Notes: generated by a model not told the origin, from the letters alone. Shown: positions 1,819-43,200, counted from the stretch's first letter. The stretch is 60,803 nt of DNA from a virus (IMGVR_UViG_3300020044_008671:1-60803); one strand, 5' to 3'. Made by a program: numbers and translations.

Positions 1819-2379
1819 CTATTTTATAATCGTGATCTCTGTTGTCAGATCAAAGGAAGGGCCTTCTTCATCTTTCGTTTCAAACCATGGACCAGCTAAT
1901 CGAGGAAACAACCAAATTTTGGTAGCTTGATCTTCAACAATTCTAACATAGTCTAATGAATTAAATCCGTTCCATATATTGGGCATCGACACTCGACATA
2001 TATCTAAATAATACATTCCGTTGTCTAACCCTATATTGCACCTGTATTCTACTCCAGGGATAATTATAAAGTTGTAAATAGGCAACATGATCGTATTGCC
2101 CTTGCGATGGATATACATGATAGGCTTATACATAAATTCAGGGGTTTGGCTGATTATATTTTTTACCGGAGCCTTTCTGATTCCTAGCCTTACGGAGTTT
2201 CTTCCAAACAAATCCGATATTCCTGCTACCTTGTGGGTATAAGAGTCTTTGTCATCTAACGCCAGTTGCTTGTCCCACCCATCCATCAAGGTAAAGGTAA
2301 ATGACAACAGGTTTTTATTAGCCGTTTTTATTATTGGAGGAATGGTGCAATTGTTGCCTGCGTAGATAATTGTTTTCAT
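1819..2379 (-). CDS. Hypothetical beta-rich protein, paralog of 60389..>60803
   Basis: THKVAGISDLFGRNSVRLGIRK aligns by eye to THKIIGLADLLGKYSIRMGFRR. Confidence 0.75.
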   Translation of the reverse strand: MKTIIYAGNNCTIPPIIKTANKNLLSFTFTLMDGWDKQLALDDKDSYTHKVAGISDLFGRNSVRLGIRKAPVKNIISQTPEFMYKPIMYIHRKGNTIMLPIYNFIIIPGVEYRCNIGLDNGMYYLDICRVSMPNIWNGFNSLDYVRIVEDQATKIWLFPRLAGPWFETKDEEGPSFDLTTEITIIK

Positions 2380-2690
2380 GTATGAGTTATATAATAATTT
2401 ATATTATTTACGGTATTTACGGTATTTACGGTTTCGTTCGGAGGATTCATCAATTCAAAGGCCTCTTTTTCAAGCCTTTGTCTATGTAATACATCAACAA
2501 GTATTTCAAAATCGTGTACATTTATCTTTTCTAACAAATGGTTATAAGCTGCTTTAGCTCGCTGATAGCCTACTTCGTTTGTTGTTTTGCTGTTGTCTAA
2601 TACTATACATAAGGCTGCCATGCAAGTAAAGGCATAATCAATCCCCATCTCTACGATAGGGAGTGATTCGTTGTCATCTAGCTCATCCAT
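2376..2690 (-). CDS. Hypothetical protein
   Basis: ORF translationally coupled at both ends. Confidence 0.7.
   Translation of the reverse strand: MDELDDNESLPIVEMGIDYAFTCMAALCIVLDNSKTTNEVGYQRAKAAYNHLLEKINVHDFEILVDVLHRQRLEKEAFELMNPPNETVNTVNTVNNINYYITHT
2405..2431. repeat. 9-bp tandem repeat (tatttacgg) x3
   Basis: Read directly; encodes TVN repeats in 2376..2690. Confidence 0.85.
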
Positions 2691-3229
2691 TATAGGGCTA
2701 CTTGTTTTAGTTCAAATTCCTTAACTATCTCAATCAATGGAAAGCCTTGTCTGTCATCTACAAATGTGTCTAAAAAAGCATCTGTAATTTTCGGCAATGG
2801 CTCTCCTGCTAATTTACATAAATTAATCGCATAATACTGCTTCCAATAGAAGAACTGGCGTGTAGAGTTTCTTCCTCCCATCTTTTGATGATATACTGCC
2901 GTTGTCTTTAGCTTTGCCTGCCATGCGTTAATTTCTTCTTTAACTCCTGCAAGAGATGGCTTTTTCATAAAATCAATGAAGCCCTTTTCGGAAAGATAGC
3001 TCCCAAGTTCAATGTCATCACAATTTGGTACGTCAGGGTTTTGATTGCCTAATGTCTTGATTAGCATGTCAGTTGTTGGTTTGCTTAAATCTTTCCACCA
3101 TCGTTGTAATGAAGGCATTAATTGTTTTTCGTCCATAGTTTCTAGCGTAGGCAGAAACCATTCAGGCACTTGGTTGGGTGCTTCTAACAAGGCTTTCTTG
3201 TAGAAATCGTAGTTTGGAGTTTCGTTCAT
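2690..3229 (-). CDS. Hypothetical protein
   Basis: 179-aa ORF with an A-rich leader, within the operon. Confidence 0.75.
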   Translation of the reverse strand: MNETPNYDFYKKALLEAPNQVPEWFLPTLETMDEKQLMPSLQRWWKDLSKPTTDMLIKTLGNQNPDVPNCDDIELGSYLSEKGFIDFMKKPSLAGVKEEINAWQAKLKTTAVYHQKMGGRNSTRQFFYWKQYYAINLCKLAGEPLPKITDAFLDTFVDDRQGFPLIEIVKEFELKQVAL

Positions 3230-28248: not shown

Positions 28249-31200
28249 ATGGCAGAGATAGCAGAAGAAACCCCATTGGCGGTACAGCAAAATACAAACC
28301 AAGCATTAAAATCATTTCATAATGCGTGGAAGGATGATTTAAAGCTACCTCAAGATATAAATGAGTTTAAGAATGGGCTATCGAACGAGCAAGGAAGGAT
28401 GGCGTTTTGGAAGGCTTGGAAAGATGATATTTCCCTGCCAGACTTTGAAACTTTTAGTAGTAAGTTAGGATTTGATAAAGGTACAGCACAACCTATTCCA
28501 CCGCCTCCTGCAGTACAGGAAGAAATGCCGATGGAGACAACGCCTACCCAACAAGCTATAAAGCCAGGTATGGAAGGTTTGGCTGCTTTTACCAACAAGC
28601 AACAAAAGGAACAGGGCAGAATGTACTTTGATGATAAGATTAAGCCTTTAAAGATTAATCCGAATACAGAAGAAGACAATAAGCTTATTGAAGCCACTAT
28701 CAAAGATGCTCAATACCAAGCACCAACATTAAAAGAGCAAGAAAAGGAAGAGGTAAGCCTTGAAGCCTACCAAGAAAGAGTTGCTGCAAGGTACAACAAA
28801 GTAGCACTATCTATCGATGTTTGGATATTGCAGAACAAGACACAAGTTGAAGAAGAGATTCAAGAGAAAAAAAACGCAGATCCTGCGTATATCTCACTTA
28901 GAGGAAGTATTGAGGCGAAGACCATAGAATATCAACAAGGACTAGTTCAACAGGCACAACAAGCAATTGCAGGTCAGCAGATAAGTAAGGAGCAACAAGC
29001 ACAGATTAGTCAAGAGATAAATAAGAAGACGCAAGAGTTTAAAGATGCTGAATTTTTAAAGAGCAAAGAAGCGTTTGATAAGATTTCAGCTCCGCACATT
29101 AAAGATGGAGAGGATAAGTTAAAAGCGCAGTGGGATAACTACCAACGTGAGGCGATGAAGCCTAATACTGCTATCATCCCCCAAAAGATGCTTGACAATG
29201 CCCTAAAGCTTGTTACAAGTCCTCAGTTTGACGCACTTGGATATGAAGGTAAGAAGACTACGATAGCTAACTTTTGGAAGAGACAAGAGGCAGCCTTAGA
29301 AGGCAAAGGGCTTTCATTTGATAAGATAGAGGCTATCAAGGATGAGTATTACTATGCGGTAATGCCCAAGGTAGTTGTTAATGAAGAAAATCAAATAGCC
29401 CCTTTTGCTATCCGATCATTTGCAGAAGACCAAATAGAGGTATTAACACAACAGATTGCAGAAGCACAGAAAGCAGTACAAGTAGCGGACGCAGAGCAGG
29501 CGACATCACAAAGATTTTCTTCTAAGAACGACCTTGTAGTCCCAACTGTTACATCAAATAGAGCAGCAGACAAGGCAAAAGAAAACGTCTATAATTTAAT
29601 ACAAGCTAAAAAACATCTTGAAAACATTTTAGAACTATCAGATAATGAGTTCGCAGGTTTTTGGGCAGGTTTTGGAGCGCATGGCGTTCGCAATAAGATG
29701 CCATTCCTTTCTTCTATGCTTGACATTTCAGAGGCTGCAAACCTATTTACGGTAGTTAATAAATTAGATGCAGGACAACCGTTAAACGCAGGAGAAAAAG
29801 CTTTGTTAACAGCTTATTCTGCAGATCAGTCTATGCAGTCAGTTGCAAGAACAACGATGGCGTATAAAGCAGGAGAAGGTGTAGCACATTCATTGCCGTA
29901 CATGGCAGAATTCGTTGCTACCTCTGGTGTTTTTACAGGCACATACTCGGCAACAAAATTAGCACTTGAAGGGGTGTTAGGATCGTATGCTAAAAAAGCT
30001 ATGGTTCAAAGAGCAATCGTCAAGCCATTAGCAGGATTAATAGCTATCGAAGCTCAAACAGCAGCTAACCCACAAGCATACATCAAGGCAACACAAGAGC
30101 GTATGTTACCATCTTTTCAAGTAGCATTTGGCGAAAAGGGAGAGCAGATGGCAGCGATATTAGATAGAAACGCTGTAAATCAACTAACAGGATATAATAC
30201 AGGACACAACGAAGAGTTTTGGACTGCTTTGGTAAAAGGATTTGGCACTACCTCAGTAGATTTTGCTACAGAGAGAGGGGGGGAGTTAATTGAAAAGACG
30301 TTTAAATGGGCTGCAGGCAAAAAGAATATTCAGAAGTTCCTAACGCCTGACGTTATTAAGCGACTATCAATAGGACATTACCTAGAAAAGATGGGCCTAC
30401 AGCCTGATGCTGCAATAAAGAAGTTTATAGCAGAGAAGATGTCCTATCAAAGTTTTCCTGCTGAATTATTTGAAGAGTTTACAGCGATAGCTCCATCTAA
30501 CTTGATTACAGGAGATGCGCCAATGATGACAGGTATTGTCAATTATGACGATACCAACAAAGACTTCTTTGACTGGAAGGCGATAGGACAATTGACAGCA
30601 ACAGTAGCAGCAACATCAGCCTTATTAGGAGGAGCAGAGTTAGCAGGCACTATTGCATCAAAGGCTTGGCAGAAAACAAACCCTATCAAAGTAACGATGA
30701 GGGACAGAAACGGCAATGCGTTTAAGATAACCATAAAGCACTCTACACTTGCGCAGATTGTGAAGTTTAACACAATGAGCAAGGATGAATTAGTAAAGTG
30801 GAGAGACGAGGCGTTGCCAAAAATTGATGAAGAAGGAGATGCTAGATTATGGGTAACAAAATACGCTGATCAATTTATTAAGCAGAAGTCAGAACAAGAA
30901 GAACAAAACGCAAAGTCAAGAGAAAACTTATTAGGACAACTATTGCCTGATTTTACAGGGCAGAAGGCCACTTTTGAACAACAAGAAATATTTGATATCC
31001 TCCAAGCAAGAGTAGAAACATTGCTAGAAGAAGGATTAATACCACTACCAAAAAATGAAGAAGGAAACCAAAACGCACAAGGCAACCAACCCTTATCACA
31101 AGAAGCAGGGGAACAAGAAGATGGAACCGGCAAAGAAGGGGCCAAAGAAAATGAAGTAGGCAGATATGCAGCAGCTATTCCTACAATGCAGGAGTTGGAG

Positions 31201-34200
31201 GTTGACCTTCCGACAAGGCAGTTGGTAGGGCTTAGAGATAAAATTAAGGCTAATCCCGATAATACCGAAGCTATCATACAAGAAGAGGTAGATAGGCTTA
31301 AAGCGCAACAGTCGGATCCTGTATTTAAAGATCAGCCCGACTTTTTAGAGGCACAACAAGAGAAGATAGCAGCGCTAGAGAATGTAGTTGCTAAGATACA
31401 GGCTTCAACAAAAGTTACTCCTGGTCAACAAAACCAAATAATAATAAACCAAGATGGAAAAGCAGAAGAAAAACCCTTGTTGGAAGGGGTACAAAATGTT
31501 GGGAATGAAGGACAAGTCGGGCAAGAAAGTCCCGAACTGCGTACCCAAGAAGTCAACCAAGCAAAAGAAAGGGTAGATAAGTTTGTTTCAGAAACATTAG
31601 CACTTTCAACAACAGACCAAAATTTAAAGTCATTATTAGAGACTGATCCAAGAGCAGCACTACAAGACCTTATAGATTTCCATACAAATCAGAAGAGAGG
31701 GAAAAGTGATGTTTCGCAGAAATACCATCAAAGGGCTATTGATAGGTTTACAGCCTTACAAAACGATATTGACTTAATCAATCAAAATCAACAATCTGAA
31801 TTTAAAACCATAAGCGAATTTAAGGTCGGAGATATTGTTTCCGATAAAACAGGCGTAAATTATGAGGTAATGTCTCTTAATAACAAAGAGGCTAAGTTGA
31901 AAAACTTATCAGATACAGCTATGCCGGGAAGAATTGAAACCTACCCTATTGGCACTAACGCTAGGTTTAAATCTATATCTAAAAAAGTATTAACCCCTAA
32001 AAATAATCAAGATGAAAATGAAAATGGAATCCAAGAAGGAAGAAATGATGGAAAAGAAAATGTCTCCGAAAATGTACAAGGCGATGGAAAAGAAGGAGGG
32101 CAAGAAGTCGACAAGCAAAAAGAAGAAAAAGAAAGCCTGTTAAACCCTTCTGCACAACAAGACAAAAACAGTTCCAAAACTACTACGACAGAGCCTATGG
32201 TTATCTTTAAAGGTAACAGAGGCAAGTTAAACCCTGATGGGACTAAAAAGACAGCACACCCTGGAGTAGAGGGTGTTTTTGGAAGTACACAGTTAAAGGC
32301 TGCACAAAGATATGGAGAGGATATCTCGGAGTTTGACATTCCGATAGGCACAACCATAGAAACGGTAGAGCTAGAAGACAAAAAAACTCCTGTATCAAAG
32401 GCAAGAAAGATAGAAACAGACTTGATAAACAACTCTGATGCGCAGGTAGTAAGATTAATTACGATAGACGCAACAGGGAGAGAAGTTCAGTATATCATCA
32501 AAGACAAAAGCCTATTAGGTAAAAGGCCAACAGACGAAGTTACCGAAGCAGACGTTGTAGGTAAAGCCCTAATCCCTCGACTTAACAGAGGATTTTTAAA
32601 GGTAGGAGCCTTTATTCTAACTAACGAAAAAGCATTAAGAAATAAGGCTGACGATCTAATGTTGCAGGGAGAAGACTTGCGATTTAATATGACAATGCCT
32701 AATGGGGATAAAAAGACAATCAAAATAGTAAGTGAAGATGTTGTAAACGGATTTTATTCTCCATTAGAAAGAATAATCAACGAAACTAAGCTAGAGAAGC
32801 TTCCTGCAAAACAATGGTTAGATAAGTTTGGCAAAGGAGAAGAGGCTAAGTGGACCGGATTAGCAGAGTGGCTATCACAACAGCAAGGATCAGTCTCTAA
32901 AGCAGACATACAGCAGTACCTTAAGAACAACAGAATTAGTGTTGTTGAGGTTGTTAAAAGCGAGAACGACAAAAATCCAGAGTACCTAAAGCTAGTAGCA
33001 CTAGTGGAGGAGCTAAATAGTAAAGAGGGCAACAGAGTAGAACTGACAGATGAATTATACATAAACGGAGACGTAGGTAATTTCCTTAGTGCTGATGGAC
33101 TTACAATCAACATGGAAGAGTATGATCCAAAAAACTTTCCTAATTATACAAGAGAAGAATACGAAGAGCAGGCTAAAAAAGCAGTAGAGGCTCAAAAGAT
33201 TTTTAACGCAAATCAAGGTACGTGGGAAGATAACGGAGGTGTTAGTAGTGTTCGATATACAGACCAGCAAGAACAAGGAGAAAAAGAAAACTACAAGGAG
33301 GTGTTGGTTACGTTGCCATCAAAAAGAAATAAAGCAAAAGTTGTAGAGAAAGATGGGAAGTGGAAGATACAAAATTCAGACGGTAGTTTATCGCCAGTTT
33401 CTTTTACAGCCAAAAGTTTTGCAGAAAAAGCATTAAAAGAATATATAGAAAGAGAACAAAGTGGAGAGAGAACGGATAAAGAAACATTCAAATCCTCCCA
33501 CTTTGATGAACCAAATATTCTTGTTCATTTAAGAATGAATACTCGTACCGATGCAGATGGTAATAAAGTATTATTTCTTGAAGAAGTACAGAGCGATTGG
33601 GGGCAGATAGGGAAGAAGGAAGGGTTTGGCGAAACTTTTGTTATAAAAAGCAGAAACGGAATACCCGTTGGAAAAGAATTTTCTAATAGAAAAGATGCTG
33701 AAAAATACTTAAAAGAAAATTTTGATTTTGCTAAAGAAGGCGCTTATACTGTTCAGTCTAAAAATTCAACTCCTGCCGCGCCATTTGTGATGGACACAAA
33801 CGCATGGACCAAACTAGGGCTTAAGGTTGCTTTAAAAGAAGCAGTAAAGCAGGGTGCTGATAAGATTGCGTGGACAACAGGTGAGCAACAGAATGAAAGG
33901 TATAATTTAAGTAGGATAATTAAAAATATAGATGCTAAGATTGATGGGACAGCAGCATCAGATAACTCACCTATTTATAAGATAACATCAAAGTATAAAA
34001 GTGGGGAAGAAACAATTGGAAGTTATAGACAAGATGAATTAGAGGGTGTAGTAGGAAAAGAACTCGCTGAAAAGATTATCAAGAATAAGGGCGGAAAATA
34101 CGAAGGTGTAGATTTGCAAGTTGGCGGTAAAGGCATGAAAGGCTTTTATGGTTCGCCAACAGAAGGTAGTTTAGGTATAGTAGGTAATGTAGCTAAAAGT

Positions 34201-37200
34201 TTATTTAAGCAAGAGCCAAAAACGGTAACAATAGAAGTTTTAGGTAAAGTTCCCGATAGAACAAGCGTAGCTGATATTTATGAGGCAGGCGGAATGGAGG
34301 AGTTTAAAAAGAAAAACGTAATTAAATCCACCCAACACTCCATAGACATAACCCCCGAATTAAAAGCGCAAGTAGCACAAGGGCTTCCTTTATTTCACTT
34401 TGGCAATGATGGAGAGATATTAGGCTTTGCGTATGATGGTAAAATGTACTTGAATGGAGAGAAGCTTACGGCGCAGACTACCATGGAAGAGGCAGGCCAT
34501 ATATGGATCAATTGGTCAAAACAAAACCGACCAGACTTATATGATGCAGGGCTTAAAAAGGTAGCAAGTTCTAAATATCTAGTGCAAGTTTCTGCTAATC
34601 CTAAATACAAGGCAGAGGCTTTGAAGGTAGGTAAAGCAGGAAGTAAAGAGTACAACGATTACCTATTAGAAGAAGCGTTAGCTAAAGCTATTGCGGACCA
34701 AGGAGCATTATTTGTTTCTCAATCTAAGAGAGATTCCTTTAAGGAGTGGGTGCGTGAGATGTGGAAGGCAGTTACAAAAGCATTTGGCATCCAAGGTTTA
34801 TCATCAGAAGATATAGCTAAGTTGACTTTAGAGGACTTTGCTAAGATGGCAGCAGCAGATACTTTATCGAAAGAGAAGAAGGCAAAGCCAACTCAAGAAA
34901 TAAAGCCAACATTAGTTGCAGGAGAGGGAATGTTTCCTCTTAAAGATATTAATACAGACGAGGTTAGATTTCAGAATAGAGACAAGGCATTTAGTCCTGA
35001 ATCAGTAGCAAGGATTGTCAAAAACTTTGATCCTAACAAAATGGACGCTGTTGTCCTTTGGAAAGATCCCAAGGATGGCAAGACATATATGTTGTCGGGA
35101 CACTCTCGACTAGAGGCGCACAAACAACTAGGTAAAGGTCAGATTAAATCAAGGTTCTTTACAGGAACAGAGGCAGAGGCTATTGAATATGCTCGTACTT
35201 CTAACGTGCAAGGAACAAGAGAGACTAATACTGAAAGGGCAGCCTATTACAGAGCAAAGCGATTGGCAGGCGCTACAAACGCAGAAATAGAGGCAGAGGC
35301 AAAAGAACTAGAAGGGGCAAACGCAGCTAAAATCATTAGCTATTCATATTTAAACCCAAAAGGAAAGGTTGTCGCTGCATTACAAGCAAGCGAAGGAGCA
35401 GACGTTGCAAGTGAGAAAAATATCGAGGCGATAGCTAACTGGATTGGAAGTTCAAGAAAGCAATTTTCTATCTTGACAAATGCGCATGAAGATGAGATGT
35501 ATAATTGGCTTGTAGGAGAAGGCGTGTATGGCAATATTATTAAAAACAAATTGGTATTTACTGATCGCATCAATGCTGCGATAATGAAGAACACAGAGTT
35601 TGGAACCTTTAATGCTGAAAAGCCACTTAATCTCAACAATAAAGCAACTAAGACTTCTATTGAATTAGAGTACGATCAAGCAGTTGACGAGGCAACAAAA
35701 ACATTAGACGCAGCCAACAAAGCATTGGCAGCTAAAAGAACTGAATTAGTTACAAGAAAGGCTACAGCAGAAGAGATAGGCCGTATTCTTAAGCCATTCA
35801 ATGACGCAGTAATTGTAGCACAAAAGACATTAGTTGAGTTAAAGGCTAAGAAAGGAGAAGTGCTAGCAGCAGCAGCCAACCAACCATCATTATTTGACGA
35901 AATCCAAGAAAACATAGACAATGGAAACACCAATGAAGAAGAAGTCATCATTACCTTATCAAAGCCCGATGAGCCAATACAAGAAGATGATCAGGCTAGT
36001 GGAGGCGTTACGCCAAAACCATCCCAAGAAGACAATAAAACAAAAATAGATTCTATTAATGTTTTAGCTATAAAAGAGAGTGTTACAAACTTTGGTAGAC
36101 TGCAAGTGGGAGACAAGTTTTACATAGTCAAGCATAAAGCATTTACGCCTAGTTGGGATGGTGCTATATTAGGCGTTAAAACAGGTCCAGGCAAGTATAA
36201 GGTGGGTAAAAACGTCTTTGATATAGACGATACGGATATTGTTGTTTTAGAGTCCGATGTCATAAAAACACTTACCCCAACAGAATTCTATACTATTGCA
36301 AACGCAAGCACAAGAGCTGCAGGATGGGGCAATGCTTTAGTGGCAAAAGAGTTTCCAAAAGAGGTTCAAGATTTTTATTGGAGTGTTTCTGATAAAATGG
36401 TATCTATGTGGAAGCCTGGGCAACAATATAGTATTGGCCAATCTAAATATGAAATAGGTCTTATTACTACTGATGATAATGGACATAAAGTTGCACAAGT
36501 TACTGTAATAAAAGCGCCAACAAACTATTTTGGCGGATCCTCTATACAACAAGAAGGAGATGTAATTCTTAATGCTGTACCAACTCCCAAAGCTCAACCT
36601 ACACCTCCCCCAAGCCAAGAAAACAAACCCAAAGAGCTAACAATAAAAGCGAAGGGTGCTAAATATGAATATAGGGCGACTGATTCAACAGGCAACCATC
36701 TTTATATATCAGCAACAGGAACTAAGTCAACATACCCATATTTAGTGGTAGCTAAATACGGAAGTCAAAACTTCATTGTAGATATAGTAGACCATTGGGA
36801 GTTTCCTGATTTTGGGCAATATAAAATAGGGGCTAACAAACCTAATTTACAACCTACACCTCCGCCAAGCCAACCAAATCCTAAAGCAAAAAAGAGAGCA
36901 AGACGAGAAGTTGAAGAAGATCCTGAATTAGATCAATTACTAGGAGACTTATCGAATTTAGTACGCAACTCACGAAAAAATACAAACGTTAACTTTGATC
37001 CAATACAGGCAGCAGCCATAGCAGCTAAAGGAATTCAAATAGTAGCCTCTTACATAAGAAAAGGGGTGTATAAGTTTAAAGATATCATAGAGGAATTATA
37101 TGATAGAATTGGCGATACAGTCAACGATTTATACTTATCAATAAAAAAAGCCTATTTTTCTTATAACGCAGAAGCTGCTGACGAGATTGCAAGCCAAATG

Positions 37201-40200
37201 GATAATCTTAGTGATATTAGAAATATTACTTTGGCAGATATTATTCCTCAAGAAGAAGAAGACGAAGAAATAATTGAGGAAGAAATTGACAACGAAGATC
37301 CAATGTCTGAAAGAGACATGCAGATAGCAACGATAGCCCCATTTGCAAATAAAATACTATCAATGTTTGAAGATGGTTTTAAATGGACTTCAAGAACGCA
37401 GTATGAGAATATAGCTAAAATATATAAGATTACGGATCCTGCTATTGCAAAAGAAGGAGTTGAATATGCAATTACGCTACACGTTAAAAACATTGTCGCA
37501 CAAGGCAAGGAAAGCGGATTATCAGAGAAAGAGATTTACGACAAGATAGTTGACTTTTATGGCCAACAGCCTAATATGAGTCTGCGAACTAGCGAAAGCA
37601 TAGAGAATCAACAGTACTCAACACCTACTCCGTACTCATTTGCAGCAGCAATGTTTGTGGGTGGAACAGAAAATACAGAAGGCAAGCAGTTCTTTGAGCC
37701 ATCAGCAGGAAATGGACTATTGGTAAGTGCAATACCAAGCGCACAGGTAGAAGTAAACGAGATTGACGAAGTAAGAAATCATACCTTAACATTACAAGGA
37801 TTTAAGTTTGTAGGATCACAAGACGCAACCAATAGCTTTAACAACAAGCTAAAAGCTTTTGATGGTATTTTAACTAACCCTCCATTCGGTCCGATGGAGA
37901 CTACCATGTCGTATGATGGATTTAAGATTCGTGATAAGGCACATTGGATGGCGTTGAAAGCATTGGAGACAATGGCCGACAATGGAAGTGCAGCAATTAT
38001 TGTAGGAGGAAACAGCGAATACGAAGCCTCGGGATATATAGCAAACAACAAAGCGTTTATCAATTATCTGAATACAAGATATAATGTAATCGATATTATT
38101 AATGTAGATGGTAAGCTATACTCTAAGCAGGGGACTACGTTTCCTACGCAGATAATACTTATAGGCGGAAGAAAGTCCGAAGTAGGAAAATTGGCGTTTA
38201 ATATGCCAATTGAAAAACAAGCAGCAGTTAATAATTGGGATGATTTATACTCACGAGTAAAAATAGCACAAGATGAAAGAAATATTTTACAATCCAACTT
38301 GGATGCCGGACGAAAGGACAGCTTGCCTCCTAATGGTCAAATGCAGCCGGGAACACCGCCCCAAGAACAAAACCCAACTCCAATACCTCCTAGAGGACAG
38401 AGTGGAGGAAATGGTCAAATTACAGGAGGAGGAATGGCCGGGCCACGCAGTGGGACAAATGAAGGCAGAAATCCTAGACTCCCAAATCCACGACCAAATT
38501 CCACGAACCAACAACCCGAAGATATTAGCCCAATTCCTGGTGGAATACGGTCCGATGGGCCAAGCATTGAGGATGCCAGTAACCAAGACGAAGGCGAAAC
38601 GGTTAACCCAAGCCCAATTACAGGAATTGTGGGAGAGGATGGATTTTCAAAATCTACTCGATATGATGTAGAAGAAGTATTCGCTAGTAAAGTTGATGTA
38701 CCATATTTGCCAGTTTCTACTGCTAATGGAGGAGGAACTAGAATTCCTTCTACAATGGCATTACCTTTAGAGGCTGCACTATTACAAATAGATCAGCAGT
38801 TTGGAGGAATAGATAATTATGTTGCTAATAAGTTAGGCTATAAAACAATAGCTGATTTACATGAAGTTTTCTTAGCGGAGCAAATTGATGGCGTAGCGTT
38901 GGCTATCTATAATATCGACAAAGGAGAAGCGGTAATAATTAGCGACATGGCAGGAATTGGAAAGGGAAGAATAGCTGCAGGGATTATACGCTATGGTGTG
39001 AGAATAGGGAAGAAGCCTATTTTTATGACGCAGAAAGCTGCCTTATTCTCTGATATGAAACGTGATTTAATGGACATTAAGAGTGGGGATCTTGTGCCAA
39101 CGATTATGTCTAGTAATACCGAAGCTAATATAGTTGTTAAAGACGACAACGATAATGACGTTCTTATGCATAAAGCTCCAAGTTTGGAATTAGCTAAAAG
39201 AATATACGAATCGGGCCAAATGTTGCCTGGCACAGACTTTATGTTTGCCAACTATTCTTATTTTAACAAAGCAGCAGAAAAAGCAAAAAGAAATTTTTTA
39301 AAAGGGTTAGCAACAGATAACATCCTAATCTTAGATGAGAGCCATACTGCAGCAGGAGAAAAGCCTGCAAGAAGGCAGAAGAATGAAGATGGTACTGAGA
39401 AGATAAATTTAGCAACGTTTATGCGTAGTGTAGTTGAAGTTTCGCAAGGAGTAACTTATTTAAGTGCCACCTATGCCAAGACTGCTAAAAACATGCCTAT
39501 TTATGCGCTCAAAACAGCAATCAGAGACACAGGATTAAGCCCAGACGAAATTACGATAGCGATAGAATCGGGGGGAGTACCTTTGCTAGAGGTAATATCA
39601 AGACAGCTAGTTCAGTCGGGGCAATTAGTAAGAAGACAACGTAGCTACGATGGAATAAAATTCCAATATCCTGTTATTGGAGAGAATAATGAGGCTGAAA
39701 GAGATGCGCAATGGAAAGTCGCAGATGAAATCACTGCACTATATCGCAAGATTATTTCTTTTCAAGAAGAATATGTGCAGCCTGCAATAGAAGCTTGGGA
39801 TAGTGAATTACAACCAGTAGGAGGTGGGGCAGGCGCAACACAAGGAACGGTTAAAATGGGAATTTCTAACACCCCATTTGCAAATAAGCTATACAATACC
39901 ACTAACCAGCTATTGTTAGCATCAAAAGCGGATGCTGTAGCAGATATAGCGATAGCTGAACTAAAAGCAGACAGAAAAGTAGTGTTGTTTGCCATGAACA
40001 CGATGGAGTCGTTTATGTCTGACCAAGATAATTTAGGGCAAGAGATGGAAAGCCCTGATTTTATTGAGGTAACAAAAAAAGCTTTATCGGGAATTTTTAG
40101 AGTTACAATGACAACCATGTCTGGCCAAAAAATAGACATGATATTGCCATTAGACAGATTAACGAAGGAAGGGCAAGAGGAGTTCCGTAAGTTAGAGGAG

Positions 40201-43200
40201 GAGATAAACAACAAAAAGACAGGACTTCCACTAAGCCCTATCGATCACATCTTAAATAAAATTGAGGCAGCAGGATTTAGTACAGCAGAGATAACAGGGC
40301 GAACCAACAGATTAACGCAACAACAAAATGGGATGTTTGCTTTGTTGCCAAGAAAAAATAAAAACAGAAAGCAGAACGCAAGAGACTTTAATAACTATGT
40401 GCCTAACACGAAAAGGAACATTGTAAATGCCTTATTTATTAATCAAGCAGGAAGTACAGGAATAAGCTTACATTCAAGTAAGACAGTATCAGATCAACGA
40501 GAACGAACAATGATTGTTCTCCAAGCGCACCATGACATTAACGAAATGGTACAAGCTTTAGGTAGGGTATTTAGAACAGGGCAAGTAAATAACCCTAACT
40601 ATATATTTGTGTCAAGCGCACTTCCTGCCGAGTCTAGGCTGATGATGATGTTGAAAAGCAAAATACAAAAACTTAGTGCAACTACTACCTCAGATTCAAA
40701 AGATTCTACCGTTAAGGCAGAGGCGGACATTTTAAATATGTACGGAGATGGGATAGTAACAAGATATTTAGCAGACAATATATCGGACGATCCAAGTAGA
40801 CCAGGGGTAAATGAATTAATTGGAGATATATTAGATCTTAGGCTTCTTGTAATGATACAAGGACAAGAGGCTGTTCAGAACGAAGTAGAAAATCCTCAAG
40901 AAGATGCAGCAAGAACAGTGACAGGGCGGATAGCACTATTGCCTGCTGCTATGCAGAAAGATTTTTATGATACGGTTGTGAAAGATTATATTGAACTTAT
41001 TGACGATTTAGATAAGAAAGGCGAGAATAAGCTAAAATCACAAGCCCTTCCATTAAATGCTGTAACGGTGTCGAAGGAAGTATTTACGATTGGGCAAGGC
41101 GGCAGTTCAGTATTTGGGCAAGACTCTTTTCTTGAAATGGTAGAGGTAGACGTATTGAGGCAGCCATATTCTTCATTTAAAATTAAGGAGTTAATAAAAG
41201 AGCAGCTTGGCGAAGAAACAGCAGAGGAGCAGAAGGAGAGAATAGTGGCAGAGGCAATAGCTTACTATGATAACCAAGCATTGACATACAATCAACTGCA
41301 ACAAGAGAGAAAAGAACAAAAGATAGCAGAGGCTAGAGAAAAATATGAGGCTTTACCAAAAGAAGAGCTAAATGAACTACAACTAGAAGAGTTAAAAAAT
41401 CAATATGCTTTTATAGAGGCAGAAGCAGAGCAAAGAATGGGCGACAATATTGAGATAAATAGAGCTAAAGCCGAAAGAACAAAAAATATTATAACAACCT
41501 ATGTGCGTCAGTTTGCGCCTGGCAAACAAATGGTGGCTCCTGCAAATTCGGCTGATGGGACTACTACGGCAATTTCAATAGGGATAAATATAAACTACAA
41601 AGCAAAGAACCCATATACTTTATCAGGAATGAAAGTTCGTATAGCGTATGCTAATGCTATGCAATATCGCACTATTCCAATAAATAAGTCTAGGGAGTTA
41701 CAACCTATTATTGAGGCAACAGTTGCGTCAAGAACTCCGATGGATAGTTCTACTATATTAGAAAGATGGGACAATCTAAAGTCAAATAAAACAAGAGAAA
41801 AAGTTCCAATCATCACAGGAAATATATTACAAGCATACAAGGGAGATGTTTTAACATTAGGGAAGATCATTTCGTATAACACGTTGGATGGCAAAATAGA
41901 AAACGGCATATTGATGCCAGTAAATTTTGCCAAACCTACAACAACAAGTGTTCCTGCTAAACAGATGGCAGGCATCATTCAAAACCTAAACAAATATCAA
42001 ACTGTCTCAACAACGAACGGTGTAATATTTGAATGGGCAGATAAGGCAAAAACCGAACTAGAGATTTCTGTTCCTAGAAGCAAAAAGCAGGGGGGTATAT
42101 TTTTCTTAGATGAAGACATTAGAGACTTAGTAAATGGGCGTAACTTTAGATCAATGGGCAATCAAATGACTGCAAGTATGCCTGCATCTAACCTTCAGCC
42201 ATTGTTAAATATCCTTTCTGATAAACACAAGTCCGTTGTGGAAGTAAGGAATGAAGATCTGCCTGTTAGCCCTAACAATATGCGCAGTGGCAATGATATT
42301 GATAGCGCAAGAATAGGGCCTCCCGATGTTGACAGTAGAATGGAAGGAGACAAGCCATCTTTGCCTAATCGATCAAAGCTATTTGGGCAGATTGATGCAC
42401 TAAAGATCAATACAAAACGAGCGTATTCATTAGCACCTCCATTTGTATTTGCAATTGGCACATGGAACCTTGCTTTAGATATTCTTAAAGGAGCAATAAT
42501 CGCAGGTGATACTATCAACTTAGCTATCGACAAGACTGTTAGCTACCTTAGAGGACAAGCAGTAGCAAATGGATTAGCAATGAATGAGAGGGCAGTAACA
42601 GACTACCTTACATTACTTGCAAAGAAGCCTCATCTACTATTGAGCAATGCTGAGAAACGCATACTAAAGAGCAATGTAAAAAATCAGTTAATATTTCAAG
42701 AACTTAACTTGGAGCAGGCTGTATATGGAAGAATAATACAGACTCCAACATCTGCTGCAAGAAGAGGACTAACACGAGTGATGCCCGAGATGGCTATACT
42801 TGGAAAGGCGCAGAATGAAACTATCGCCAAAGGCACAGAAGCAATAGGCAGAGGAGTTCAGCAGCTTACACGCATGATGGGATCAAGTAAGTTTGCTCCA
42901 GTACGACTAGCAGCAAAGACATTGGCAGGAGTATTTAAAAATATCCAAAGAGACTTTGAGCATGTCAACAAAGCGGAAGAGATGTATGGCGCTATCGAAG
43001 GAAGGTCAATGTTAGATGCCGTTCAGTTGAGCAATATGCTTAAGTCAATGCTTGAAGGAGAAAGTCCAGATGCAATGCGCAGAATTGATGAGGTCCTTGA
43101 CCCTATATTTTACAGCAGAAACAAAACAAAGCAGCAGTTCTTTGATGAGTTAGACAACTTTTATCTATTGTCAACAGGGCAAACGATTAGTGGATCTTTC

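What the first reader, a model, noticed from the sequence alone, without database searches (positions are those of the whole stretch)
31055..38671. A set of nested +1-frame genes overprinted on the linkers of the giant ejection protein
Seen: five ATG-initiated ORFs (31055-31159, 31454-31576, 32012-32143, 35921-36049, 38273-38671) lie inside the 17.3-kb gene on the same strand. All are in the same +1 frame, all have an A-rich leader with A at -3, and three start from caagATG. Each coincides with an acidic or polar low-complexity linker of the host protein and ends near where folded sequence resumes. Known: Bacteroidota initiate translation on A-rich, SD-less regions with A at -3, so internal starts are feasible. 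Inference: the 'linkers' are the out-of-frame reading of real small genes. Either the polyvalent protein grew by reading through its small neighbours, or its linkers serve as docking space for co-expressed basic peptides and partner proteins. Standard gene callers would miss all of them. Caveat: E/Q/G-rich linkers give Lys-rich +1 readings by composition alone, so the two ORFs with specific sequence features carry most of the weight.
Basis: partly seen in the sequence, partly recalled or inferred. Interest (0 to 1): 0.92.

Follow-up and report, generated by a model that had tools for sequence, protein, structure and literature searches.

The report
Hidden genes inside a giant phage gene
Two of the five small reading frames nested inside this phage's 17-kb gene are real, conserved protein-coding genes that annotation misses, and one of them turns what looks like a floppy linker of the giant protein into a stretch of DNA that codes in two frames at once.

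Summary
All five +1-frame ORFs exist exactly as described. As a set they are no longer or more numerous than synonymous-codon shuffles give, but they differ sharply one from another.

ORF5 (38273-38671, 132 aa) is a real nested gene. It lies across the methyltransferase-to-helicase junction. The same +1 ORF is present in 80 of 80 related viral loci, in cultured Bacteroides phage BS-TP4, and in at least 14 of 80 bacterial-genome loci. In those relatives variation peaks at its own third codon positions. dN/dS is 0.10-0.44 in the +1 frame against 0.96-5.24 in the host frame. Both frames are kept open. AlphaFold2 with its alignment gives pLDDT 87.5. It matches no Pfam, PHROG or NCBIfam family, no PDB sequence and no known fold.

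ORF2 (31454-31576, 40 aa) is a full-length copy of a widespread basic two-cysteine phage mini-protein (best PHROG E 4e-9). It is nested in the same way in the giant gene of an otherwise unrelated complete phage.

ORF4 is undecided. ORF1 and ORF3 are what the composition gives.

The function of both real genes is inferred only, and no expression data exist. The closest printed precedent is the out-of-frame HNH insertion in a phage methylase ("ShiLan").

The parts
28249..45552 (+). Giant host gene (5767 aa), a polyvalent virion-type protein that holds a DNA methyltransferase / Strawberry-notch-like helicase dyad
   Evidence: ORF list. Pfam AAA_34 at 1.5e-18 and Helicase_C_4 at 1.2e-27. 858 long homologues, many carrying polyvalent-protein LPD domains. 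It lies downstream of a portal gene and a virion structural gene.
37558..38247 (+). Methyltransferase domain of the host protein (about aa 3104-3333), ending where ORF5 starts
   Evidence: Conserved block in alignment A1, with invariant columns around QQYSTP, EPSAGNG and NPPFG. The coordinates are converted from A1 residue numbers and are approximate.
38273..38671 (+). ORF5: nested +1-frame gene of 132 aa, a member of a conserved small-protein family. The same bases read in frame 0 give the Pro/Gly/Asn/Gln-rich 'linker' (host aa 3342-3475).
38926..41028 (+). Strawberry-notch-like helicase core of the host protein (AAA_34 at 38926-39672, Helicase_C_4 at 40279-41028)
   Evidence: Pfam coordinates, converted to window coordinates.
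38311..42241 (+). Segment (ORF5 from its 13th codon onward, plus the helicase) that the nearest relatives replace with an allele under 80% identical, while the flanks are about 98-99% identical
   Evidence: read laying on four lake-water runs: contig pieces, joints and depth bins.
31454..31576 (+). ORF2: nested +1-frame mini-gene of 40 aa, a full-length copy of the basic two-cysteine 'PCWKGY...VPNCVP' phage mini-protein. Three TAA codons in its frame lie two codons upstream of the ATG.
35921..36049 (+). ORF4: undecided +1 ORF of 42 aa
   Evidence: P(open | host protein) is 0.043. The three in-ORF variants in relatives are I>I, R>K and L>L in the +1 frame, and Q>K, Q>Q and V>A in the host frame. 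No Pfam, PHROG or phage tblastn match.
31055..31159 (+). ORF1: Lys-rich +1 ORF of 34 aa, most likely a by-product of composition
   Evidence: P(open | host protein) is 0.69. No family match.
32012..32143 (+). ORF3: Lys-rich +1 ORF of 43 aa, most likely a by-product of composition
   Evidence: P(open | host protein) is 0.43. No family match. The relatives carry an in-frame AAG insertion and a K>K change, which decide nothing.

Best explanation
Two real protein-coding genes are nested, same strand and +1 frame, inside the giant polyvalent-protein gene.

(1) ORF5 encodes a folded, mostly helical protein of about 130 aa. It belongs to a family that is written across the methyltransferase-to-helicase junction of DarB-like dyads in many phage and mobile-element giant proteins. 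Purifying selection acts on the +1 frame. The host frame is only kept free of stops, so its translation drifts as a low-complexity tether between the two enzyme domains. The small protein is made by internal initiation at its own ATG, which lies 1-14 codons after an in-frame stop (2 codons in this window). That start overlaps the last conserved residues of the methyltransferase domain.

(2) ORF2 is a complete copy of a 31-48-aa basic two-cysteine phage mini-protein that has been placed in a polar linker without breaking the host frame.

Shown: both frames are maintained; the +1 frame is constrained; homology; foldability.

Inferred: translation of the nested ORFs and their function. My best guess for ORF5 (about 45%) is an accessory or regulatory partner of the helicase module, with which it is co-inherited. 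About 30% goes to an independent anti-defence effector. ORF1 and ORF3 are by-products of composition, and ORF4 is open.
For: ORF5, presence. All 80 related IMG/VR loci (73 distinct junctions, 33-39% host identity; the best 80 of 357 relatives found) carry an ATG ORF of 108-182 aa in the +1 frame across the junction. The +2 frame is open for a median of only 33 codons. The host frame is open in 80 of 80.

ORF5, selection.
- Changes by host codon position 1/2/3 inside the ORF against the flanks: 152/95/65 against 204/137/946 in the largest cluster.
- The shift is significant in 7 of the 9 clusters that have two or more members (p from 7e-4 to 7.5e-66). One cluster had only 5 changes and one had none.
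- The switch falls exactly at the ORF boundaries.
- In 10 of 10 pairs, dN/dS is 0.10-0.44 in the +1 frame, 0.96-5.24 in the host frame, and 0.04-0.11 in the helicase flank for the 7 pairs where the flank dS was not saturated.
- P(+1 open | host protein) is 0.011-0.27 in 16 lineages (L082 0.0155 after correction) and 0.003-0.0075 here.
- P(host open | +1 protein) is 0 of 2000 in 12 of 17 lineages, and at most 0.0045.

ORF5, homology and fold.
- Among 17 lineage representatives, 20 of 136 pairs reach E<=1e-3 in the +1 frame against 4 in the host frame. Window against L002: 5.7e-7 over 130 aa in +1, 0.67 over 12 aa in the host frame.
- A profile built without the window sequence finds ORF5 as the only hit among 863 six-frame stretches of the window (E 1.2e-5).
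- AlphaFold2 gives pLDDT 87.5 and pTM 0.81 with the 29-row +1 alignment, against 46.2 and 0.32 for the single sequence.

ORF5, other records.
- Cultured phage BS-TP4 has the ORF (E 3.7e-12), unannotated.
- In 80 bacterial-genome loci, all 42 junctions of 24-55 aa lack a +1 ORF over 53 aa.
- 14 of the 38 long junctions hold a profile-positive +1 ORF. 10 more hold a divergent one (hhalign E 7.3e-5).

ORF2.
- 9 PHROG hits, best E 4.3e-9. The other four listed ORFs gave 0 hits and ten control +1 ORFs gave 0 of 10.
- 252 phage records match by tblastn. The motif lies in the annotated frame in 3 of 3 records checked.
- 12 of 81 motif copies in IMG/VR sit in open frames of 65 aa or less. Those of 31-48 aa printed share its K-rich-head / motif / K-rich-tail layout (by eye).
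- The nearest ESM-Atlas clusters are proteins of 35-39 aa, scoring 0.94-0.96.
- A complete, otherwise unrelated 57.7-kb phage holds a 39-aa copy in the +1 frame of its 4253-aa gene. This is the only tblastx match between the two phages.
- There, +1 identity is 26 of 38 against 19 of 38 in the host frame, and most differences fall at +1 third positions (10/7/15).
Against: There is no evidence that either nested ORF is translated. No RNA, ribosome-profiling or proteomic data were available.

ORF5.
- Selection on ORF5 was measured in relatives whose host protein is only 33-39% identical, not in this phage's own lineage.
- In the nearest relatives the segment from 38311 onward is a different allele whose sequence I could not read.
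- ORF5 is a divergent family member: 10-25% identity, 21.6 bits in the leave-one-out search. It is near neutral by eye, whereas the others are acidic (pI 4.0-5.2).
- Its codon usage and GC3 (0.59 against a genome mean of 0.32) are unlike this phage's genes.
- 12 long junctions in bacterial genomes have no +1 ORF. More distant dyads lack the family: an Acinetobacter phage and a Persicobacter plasmid.

ORF2.
- No relative allows a within-lineage test.
- A single comparison with one other phage carries the frame argument.
- A recently frame-shifted relic is not excluded.

Function.
- Nothing points to a function: no family, PDB-sequence or fold match.
Confidence: 0.85

Rival explanations
1. The nested genes are real, but they are selfish insertion elements and not functional partners of the giant protein. 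They would resemble the out-of-frame HNH insertion ('ShiLan domain') in an actinophage methylase. Such an element lands inside a gene, persists because it leaves the host frame open as a tolerated loop or linker, and spreads between elements.
For: The junction insert is present or absent among dyads: 42 of 80 genome loci have only 24-55 aa there. The ORF2-type mini-gene is the only similarity between two otherwise unrelated phages, and it also exists free-standing. The host frame is kept open in every case. The precedent is in print (PMC11855218, abstract read).
Against: No nuclease or other mobility domain was found. At E<=0.01 only 2 of the 29 ORF5-family members have any Pfam match, both isolated and weak (CENP-X at 0.0015; Mal s 1-like at 0.0092), and neither is a nuclease. 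There are 0 PHROG matches and no fold neighbour. The family has diverged together with its host gene across lineages that are only 33-39% identical, which looks like long vertical co-inheritance. ORF2 is only 40 aa.
Confidence: 0.25
2. ORF2 is a relic, not a gene. On this reading an in-frame mini-domain or a captured gene fragment was thrown out of frame by compensated indels, and the +1 reading has not yet decayed.
For: Compensated frameshifts 4-7 nt apart do occur between this gene and its near relatives (28774/28780, 33548/33555, 43280/43284). In other phages the motif sits inside larger proteins of 103-577 aa. No within-lineage selection test was possible.
Against: ORF2 has the complete architecture of the free-standing 31-48-aa mini-proteins: its own ATG, a K-rich head and a K-rich tail. 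A second nested copy in an unrelated phage also keeps the ATG and the stop, and it is more conserved in the +1 frame than in the host frame. None of the 252 giant homologues carries the motif in frame. P(+1 open | host protein) is 0.023.
Confidence: 0.15
3. All five ORFs, ORF5 included, are by-products of composition. Linkers poor in hydrophobic residues simply lack +1 stops.
For: The numbers and lengths of +1 ORFs as a set match synonymous shuffles, and the ORF5 segment gives a median +1 ORF of 61 aa in shuffles. ORF1 and ORF3 are fully explained this way. The +1 frames have atypical GC3.
Against: Composition cannot explain four things: suppressed host-synonymous variation with dN/dS below 1 in the +1 frame; greater conservation of the +1 reading; a confident fold from the +1 alignment; and the PHROG and tblastn homology of ORF2. 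In addition, 12 long junctions have no +1 ORF.
Confidence: 0.02
4. The +1 segment of ORF5 is part of the giant protein itself. Ribosomes would shift into it and back out, so the folded domain would sit between the methyltransferase and the helicase.
For: The +1 reading looks like a folded domain, while the frame-0 reading looks like filler.
Against: A +1-frame stop lies 1-14 codons before a conserved ATG, and a stop closes the ORF before the helicase. Frame 0 is kept open against strong odds in 17 of 17 lineages, which would be needless if it were not read. This model needs two efficient programmed shifts.
Confidence: 0.03

Closest known systems
[quoted passage not shown]
   Same: A small gene lies out of frame inside a phage methylase-type gene. 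The host frame has no stops across it and is thought to read as a tolerated loop. Annotation misses the inner gene. The inner gene has its own start codon near the beginning of the insert.
   Different: That inner gene is a recognisable homing endonuclease, and the element is described as actively homing. ORF5 has no nuclease or other known domain. It sits between two domains rather than inside one, and it has diverged with its host gene across many lineages. ORF2 is a 40-aa basic peptide.
Embedded spanin genes Rz/Rz1 of phage lambda (recalled; the spanin paper PMC6139136 was seen only as a listing with the start of its abstract)
   Same: A complete gene is nested on the same strand in the +1 frame of a larger phage gene, and both products are functional.
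   Different: In Rz/Rz1 the two products are partners with one known function (lysis), and the outer gene is small. Here the outer gene is 17 kb, the outer reading is a non-conserved linker, and the inner function is unknown.
DarB-type methylase-helicase dyad of polyvalent proteins (Iyer et al. 2017, PMC5512222; passages read)
   Same: The host gene carries the adenine-methyltransferase plus SWI2/SNF2 (Strawberry-notch-like) pair that the paper describes as a dyad delivered with the DNA.
   Different: In the main text of that paper 'overlap' and 'linker' occur 0 times, so no nested gene at the junction is described. That P1 DarB needs small accessory proteins for packaging is recalled from memory and was not checked here.
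Overprinted genes of small viruses (review PMC8227390; listing and start of abstract only)
   Same: Two proteins come from one stretch of DNA in different frames. One frame is strongly constrained and the other is compositionally odd and disordered.
   Different: The classic cases are in small RNA or ssDNA genomes under size pressure, and the new frame is usually the disordered one. Here the genome is a dsDNA phage of at least 60 kb, and the large 'host' gene carries the disordered reading.

Membership tests
Junction-embedded small protein family (alignment A2; unnamed) | Complete ATG-to-stop ORF in the +1 frame that spans the methyltransferase-to-helicase junction of the giant gene | tested here: met
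   38273-38671 begins at the end of the methyltransferase block and ends just before the helicase block.
Junction-embedded small protein family (alignment A2; unnamed) | Sequence match to a family profile built without the query | tested here: met
   The leave-one-out HMM gives E 1.2e-5 and 21.6 bits, the only hit among 863 six-frame stretches. blastp to L002 gives 1e-8 in a database of 80 sequences. blastp to L233 gives 2e-7.
Junction-embedded small protein family (alignment A2; unnamed) | Purifying selection on the +1 frame, with the host frame merely kept open | tested here: inconclusive
   This is shown for 7 clusters and 10 pairs of relatives. It is not testable in the window's own lineage, because the near relatives carry an unreadable divergent allele from 38311 onward. 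For the window itself only the open-frame odds are available: 0.003-0.0075 and 0 of 2000-3000.
Junction-embedded small protein family (alignment A2; unnamed) | Folds as a compact protein | tested here: met
   AlphaFold2 with A2 gives pLDDT 87.5 and pTM 0.81 for the window's sequence. This is a prediction only.
'PCWKGY...VPNCVP' basic two-cysteine phage mini-protein (PHROGs 9737, 4359, 36547, 727 and others; function unknown) | The core motif of about 25 residues with both cysteines | tested here: met
   phrog_9737 at E 4.3e-9, six PHROGs at E<=1e-4. tblastn identity of 52-74% to 252 phage records. Motif comparison.
'PCWKGY...VPNCVP' basic two-cysteine phage mini-protein (PHROGs 9737, 4359, 36547, 727 and others; function unknown) | Stand-alone architecture: Met, a short Lys-rich head, the motif, a Lys-rich tail, 31-48 aa in all | tested here: met
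   ORF2 is 40 aa with this layout, the same as the free-standing copies in L114, L095, L119, L109 and L133. The nearest ESM-Atlas clusters are 35-39 aa.
Polyvalent protein with a DarB-like methylase-helicase dyad (the host gene) | Adenine methyltransferase and SWI2/SNF2-type (Strawberry-notch-like) ATPase in one polypeptide, together with other domains | tested here: met
   Pfam AAA_34 and Helicase_C_4. The NPPF-type methyltransferase block is conserved in A1. Homologues carry LPD domains.
Polyvalent protein with a DarB-like methylase-helicase dyad (the host gene) | Packaged in the virion and delivered with the DNA | not testable with these tools
   The only support is position: the gene lies in the structural module, after the portal and a virion structural protein.
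Out-of-frame homing-endonuclease insertion (ShiLan type) | The inner ORF encodes an HNH or other homing endonuclease | tested here: not met
   No nuclease family was found in any of the 29 ORF5-family members. The only two Pfam matches at E<=0.01 are isolated and weak (CENP-X, Mal s 1-like), and there are 0 PHROG matches. There is no fold neighbour. ORF2 has no endonuclease match either.
Out-of-frame homing-endonuclease insertion (ShiLan type) | The insert is present or absent among homologous host genes, and the host frame stays open | tested here: met
   42 junctions of 24-55 aa lack the ORF, while 24 long junctions have it. The host frame is open in 80 of 80 loci.

The most novel reading that the evidence does not exclude
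Long 'disordered linkers' of giant phage and mobile-element proteins are often not linkers by design. They would be the frame-0 shadow of embedded small genes. On this reading, polyvalent proteins were built, at least in part, by reading through small genes or captured gene cassettes. There would then be a hidden layer of nested genes: the junction protein as an obligate partner of the DarB-like anti-restriction dyad, and mobile basic mini-protein cassettes. This layer would have gone unseen in thousands of genomes.
Probability: 0.25. Interest if true: 0.9.

Novelty: new variant of a known kind. Interest (0 to 1): 0.82.

Why it matters
Nested same-strand genes are known in phages, and an out-of-frame gene inside a phage methylase was described in 2025. 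What is new here has four parts.

1. A whole, widely distributed family of folded proteins of about 110-180 aa is written across the methyltransferase-helicase junction of giant polyvalent proteins. It was found in 80 of 80 viral loci examined, in a cultured Bacteroides phage, and in prophage-like regions of many bacterial genomes. It is all but absent from protein databases: 11 clusters out of 5.8 billion.

2. The evolutionary evidence shows that the apparent interdomain linker is the passive reading and the hidden frame is the constrained one. That changes how low-complexity linkers in giant proteins should be read. It also warns that structure and domain surveys of these anti-defence proteins miss a component.

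3. A basic mini-protein gene is found nested in the same way in two unrelated giant genes. This suggests that cassettes can be dropped into such linkers.

4. A cultured system, BS-TP4 on B. salyersiae, makes the question testable at the bench with host-synonymous mutations.

Tried and rejected
Searches for close relatives with readable DNA. All failed:
- blastn against phages found nothing.
- Three peptide-pattern scans of IMG/VR with single proteins found nothing.
- One scan of JGI metagenome contigs found nothing.
- Protein searches for long forms and for fragments gave nothing above 73% identity. Nothing spans host aa 900-1300 or 2558-2601, so ORF1-4 have no distant comparison.

Sequencing runs.
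- The look-up of sequencing runs listed 12 DNA runs with 20% of the sampled words or fewer. No RNA holder was listed.
- Read laying showed relatives about 98-99% identical, but it printed only 40 of 436 differences. That is too few to test ORF1-4.
- Of the 4 printed variants inside ORF3 and ORF4, 3 are synonymous in the +1 frame. The expected share is 0.21-0.26. I treat this as a hint only.

Arguments I dropped.
- I first read the codon-usage score and GC3 and the poor single-sequence fold as evidence against ORF5. I dropped that, because the validated nested family shows the same features.
- Part (the sliding window) failed numerically and is not used.

Function searches, all blank or weak.
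- phmmer of ORF5 against 1.84 billion representatives gave one marginal hit: P0121, E 8.2e-4, a repeat protein.
- Pfam, PHROG, NCBIfam and PDB sequence searches gave nothing usable.
- Foldseek against PDB: best E 4.0. Against BFVD: best E 0.67. VIA-align wide: best Z 3.5.
- ESM Atlas for ORF5 gave only a weak lead (0.91, GNAT_C in 25% of members).
- Complex prediction with the methyltransferase part, the helicase part and ORF5 gave no verdict (score 0.00).

Distant dyads and other checks.
- More distant dyads gave no profile hit (Acinetobacter phage, and Persicobacter, Gloeobacter and Pseudomonas plasmids). An annotated 149-aa +1 CDS in the GC-rich Gloeobacter plasmid looked similar by eye but did not match the profile.
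- The N-termini of helicases encoded as separate genes (L271, L281) are not homologous to the small protein.
- ORF4 has no tblastn match in phages.
- The 152-aa +1 ORF of G001 has no match in phages.

Literature.
- Searches. Papers read in part.
- None describes a nested gene at the dyad junction or the mini-protein motif.
- Supplementary files were not consulted. They could hold virion proteomics or domain tables that bear on this.

Full report
THE WINDOW AND THE OBSERVATION

The window is a linear IMG/VR virus record of 60.8 kb, estimated 57% complete. Gene 28249-45552 encodes a 5767-aa protein. It lies after a portal gene and a virion structural gene.

[quoted passage not shown] This is the 'methylase-helicase dyad' of polyvalent proteins described by Iyer et al. 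2017 (passages read). The nearest long homologues are only 39-40% identical over this part.

All are in the +1 frame, all have A at -3 and an A-rich leader, and three start from caagATG. caagATG is host Gln-Asp followed by a codon that starts with G.

CHANCE

Results from 2000 synonymous-codon shuffles:

| Measure | Observed | Shuffles |
|---|---|---|
| +1 ORFs of 30 aa or more | 15 | 11.0 +/- 2.5; 8.6% reach 15 |
| +1 ORFs of 40 aa or more | 5 | 4.96 |
| Longest ORF of 132 aa or more | yes | 0.9% |

Taken one by one, the ORFs differ:

| ORF | P(+1 stop-free given host protein) |
|---|---|
| ORF1 | 0.69 |
| ORF3 | 0.43 |
| ORF4 | 0.043 |
| ORF2 | 0.023 |
| ORF5 | 0.003 |

ORF5, THE TURNING POINT

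No close relative with readable DNA could be found. I therefore used an alignment of the dyad region to fetch 80 distant loci from IMG/VR. These are the best 80 of 357 relatives and are 33-39% identical. My intent was to use them as a control for composition.

Instead, every one of the 73 distinct junctions carried an ATG ORF of 108-182 aa in the +1 frame across the whole 'linker'. The +2 frame was open for a median of only 33 codons. The host frame was open in 80 of 80.

The +1 products resemble one another and ORF5. blastp of ORF5 against the L002 and L006 products gives E 1e-8 and 2e-8 over 130 aa. 71 of the 80 products form one blastp component.

WHICH FRAME IS SELECTED

- Largest cluster, first pass (the 33 loci whose +1 ORF is exactly 160 aa). 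Changes per site at host codon positions 1/2/3 are 0.51/0.43/1.16 upstream and 0.08/0.04/0.82 in the helicase. Inside the ORF they are 0.47/0.23/0.15. Variation therefore peaks at the third position of the +1 frame, and host-synonymous sites are suppressed.
- Other clusters. The shift is significant in 7 of the 9 clusters with two or more members (p from 7e-4 to 7.5e-66). One cluster had 5 changes in all and one had none.
- Boundaries. A sliding profile over the full 43-locus cluster shows the switch exactly at the ORF boundaries.
- dN/dS (Nei-Gojobori). In 10 of 10 pairs it is 0.10-0.44 in the +1 frame. The same bases read in the host frame give 0.96-5.24. The helicase flank gives 0.04-0.11 in the 7 pairs where its dS was not saturated.
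- Conservation. Across 17 lineage representatives, 20 of 136 pairs reach E<=1e-3 in the +1 reading against 4 in the host reading.
- Openness of each frame. Given the host protein, the +1 frame stays open in 1-27% of shuffles per lineage. Given the +1 protein, the host frame stays open in 0 of 2000 resamplings in 12 of 17 lineages, and in at most 0.45%.

Both frames are therefore maintained. Only the +1 frame is constrained in sequence.

IS THE WINDOW'S ORF5 A MEMBER

- A profile built from the 28 other sequences finds 38267-38668 as the only hit among 863 six-frame open stretches of the window (E 1.2e-5).
- The alignment shares the N-terminal Met-x-x-(Phe/Tyr)-Tyr start, a central helix block and a C-terminal hydrophobic block.
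- AlphaFold2 gives pLDDT 46 for the single sequence but 87.5 (pTM 0.81) with the 29-row +1 alignment.

The family has no Pfam, PHROG, NCBIfam or PDB-sequence match and no fold neighbour: best Foldseek E 4.0 and 0.67, best Z 3.5. Only 11 clusters out of 5.8 billion proteins match its profile, mostly on short contigs.

Cultured Bacteroides phage BS-TP4 has the ORF (119 aa, E 3.7e-12). Its record annotates only the giant CDS. The paper that describes BS-TP4 mentions no mass spectrometry (find mode).

A NATURAL CONTROL

Eighty loci from bacterial genomes, the best of 437 relatives, split as follows:

| Junction | Loci | +1 ORF |
|---|---|---|
| 24-55 aa | 42 | none over 53 aa; 0 profile hits |
| 100 aa or more | 14 | 116-161 aa, profile-positive (E 7e-11 to 3e-38) |
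| 100 aa or more | 10 | 120-229 aa, not matching the A2 profile at E<=1e-3 |
| 100 aa or more | 12 | none of 100 aa or more |
| 100 aa or more | 2 | host frame not continuous (L247, L271) |

Aligned together, the 10 unmatched products match A2 by hhalign (probability 62.5%, E 7.3e-5). One of them, L233, matches ORF5 directly at 2e-7.

The long 'linker' is therefore largely the nested gene itself, and length alone does not make a +1 ORF. More distant dyads lack the family.

In this phage's nearest relatives, from lake-water runs and about 98-99% identical elsewhere, identity falls below 80% from 38311 to 42241. That span runs from the 13th codon of ORF5 through the helicase. The small gene thus travels with the helicase module. 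This is my only hint towards a partner.

ORF2

Its product matches nine PHROGs of unknown function (best E 4.3e-9). ORF1, ORF3 and ORF4 match none, and ten control +1 ORFs match none.

tblastn finds the motif in 252 phage records, mostly cyanophages and also haloviruses. In 3 of 3 records checked it lies in the annotated frame of ordinary proteins of 103, 155 and 577 aa. It occurs once in the window, and in none of the 252 giant homologues.

A degenerate DNA pattern recovered 81 copies in 80 IMG/VR loci. The scan stopped at 120 stretches, of which 80 were listed and read. Twelve copies sit in open frames of 65 aa or less, two of them at contig ends. Those of 31-48 aa printed share ORF2's layout by eye. 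The nearest ESM-Atlas clusters are proteins of 35-39 aa.

One copy, in L160, is a 39-aa ORF in the +1 frame of a 4253-aa gene of a complete 57.7-kb phage, G001. That phage shares nothing else with the window by tblastx at E<=1e-8. Between the two copies:
- the +1 reading is identical at 26 of 38 residues;
- the host reading is identical at 19 of 38;
- differences at +1 codon positions 1/2/3 are 10/7/15.

Both copies start from ...caagATG. I conclude that ORF2 is probably a live nested mini-gene (about 0.7). A frame-shifted relic remains possible.

ORF1, ORF3, ORF4

No homologue of the host segments that carry them exists among the 252 proteins fetched. They have no family match.

ORF1 and ORF3 are Lys-rich mirror readings of Glu/Gln/Gly-rich host sequence, and they are expected to be open.

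ORF4 is open against odds of 0.043. Its three in-ORF variants in relatives are I>I, R>K and L>L in the +1 frame. That is too little to decide. My estimate that each is a real gene: ORF4 about 0.25, ORF1 and ORF3 about 0.1 each.

MECHANISM, AND WHAT IS INFERRED

Shown: dual maintenance of the frames, constraint on the +1 frame, homology and foldability.

Inferred:
- Internal initiation at the +1 ATG. No Shine-Dalgarno sequence is seen in most loci, and leaders are A-rich. AAGGAG and GAGGAG sites lie upstream in L002 and L005.
- Late co-expression with the giant gene.
- Function.

The family members are acidic (pI 4.0-5.2). The complex prediction gave no verdict (see Tried and rejected).

The closest printed case is the out-of-frame HNH insertion in an actinophage methylase (abstract read). 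That raises the rival reading that these are selfish insertions. The presence-or-absence pattern and the transfer of ORF2 fit it. The lack of any nuclease domain and the long co-divergence of ORF5 with its host gene do not.

My searches and the Iyer paper gave no description of a nested gene at the dyad junction. Supplements were not seen.

VERDICT

Noticed in passing
window 38311-42241: In all four lake-water runs the relatives are about 98-99% identical to the window over most of the giant gene. Identity drops below 80% over this span (rest of ORF5 plus helicase), apart from islands of 45-48 nt. This looks like a swapped module.
   Followed up: partly
window 36594-36850: Relatives in three runs lack 255 nt in frame. 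The deletion is bounded by a 14-nt direct repeat, which corresponds to the repeated PTPPPSQ linkers around a small domain.
   Followed up: no
window 43280-43284 (also 28774/28780 and 33548/33555): Compensated one-base deletion and insertion pairs lie 4-7 nt apart between the window and its relatives. The pair at 43280/43284 is present in all four runs. Either local frame slips are tolerated or the window assembly has small errors.
   Followed up: no
G001 (record behind L160), reverse-strand coordinates 29316-29774; L211:7901-8356 (-): The 4253-aa giant gene of this unrelated complete phage holds a second +1 ORF of 152 aa. It lies over an acidic linker just upstream of a helicase Walker-A motif. 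It does not match the A2 profile or any phage record.
   Followed up: partly
L224, L227-L230, L232-L235, L244 (bacterial genome loci, mostly Pseudomonadota): A divergent second subgroup of junction-embedded +1 ORFs (120-229 aa). Its members appear related to one another (by eye, from the sequences) and only weakly to A2 (hhalign E 7.3e-5). L233 is an exception and resembles the window's ORF5 directly.
   Followed up: partly
L242, L246, L250, L262, L266-L268, L277, L278, L280, L287, L290: Twelve dyads have long junctions (116-363 aa) but no +1 ORF of 100 aa or more. What fills these junctions was not examined.
   Followed up: no
L085:2773-3222 (Gloeobacter morelensis plasmid pGMOR1): The record annotates a 149-aa CDS in the +1 frame at the dyad junction and starts the helicase CDS internally, although the fused frame is open for more than 1684 aa. 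The product does not match A2, and the replicon is GC-rich.
   Followed up: partly
L084 (Persicobacter plasmid pPP10), L271, L281: Here the methyltransferase and the helicase are separate genes in different frames, with no small gene between them. This is an unfused state of the dyad.
   Followed up: partly
P0121 (266 aa): This was the only hit of ORF5 among 1.84 billion representatives (E 8.2e-4). It has a Rho_N domain and three repeats, and each repeat aligns to ORF5 residues 85-129. It may be chance.
   Followed up: partly
window 30870-31277 (-), 32007-32357 (-), 32754-33113 (-), 39762-40139 (-), 41595-41978 (-): Antisense ATG ORFs of 116-135 aa lie inside the giant gene, as long as ORF5. 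They were not tested for conservation.
   Followed up: no
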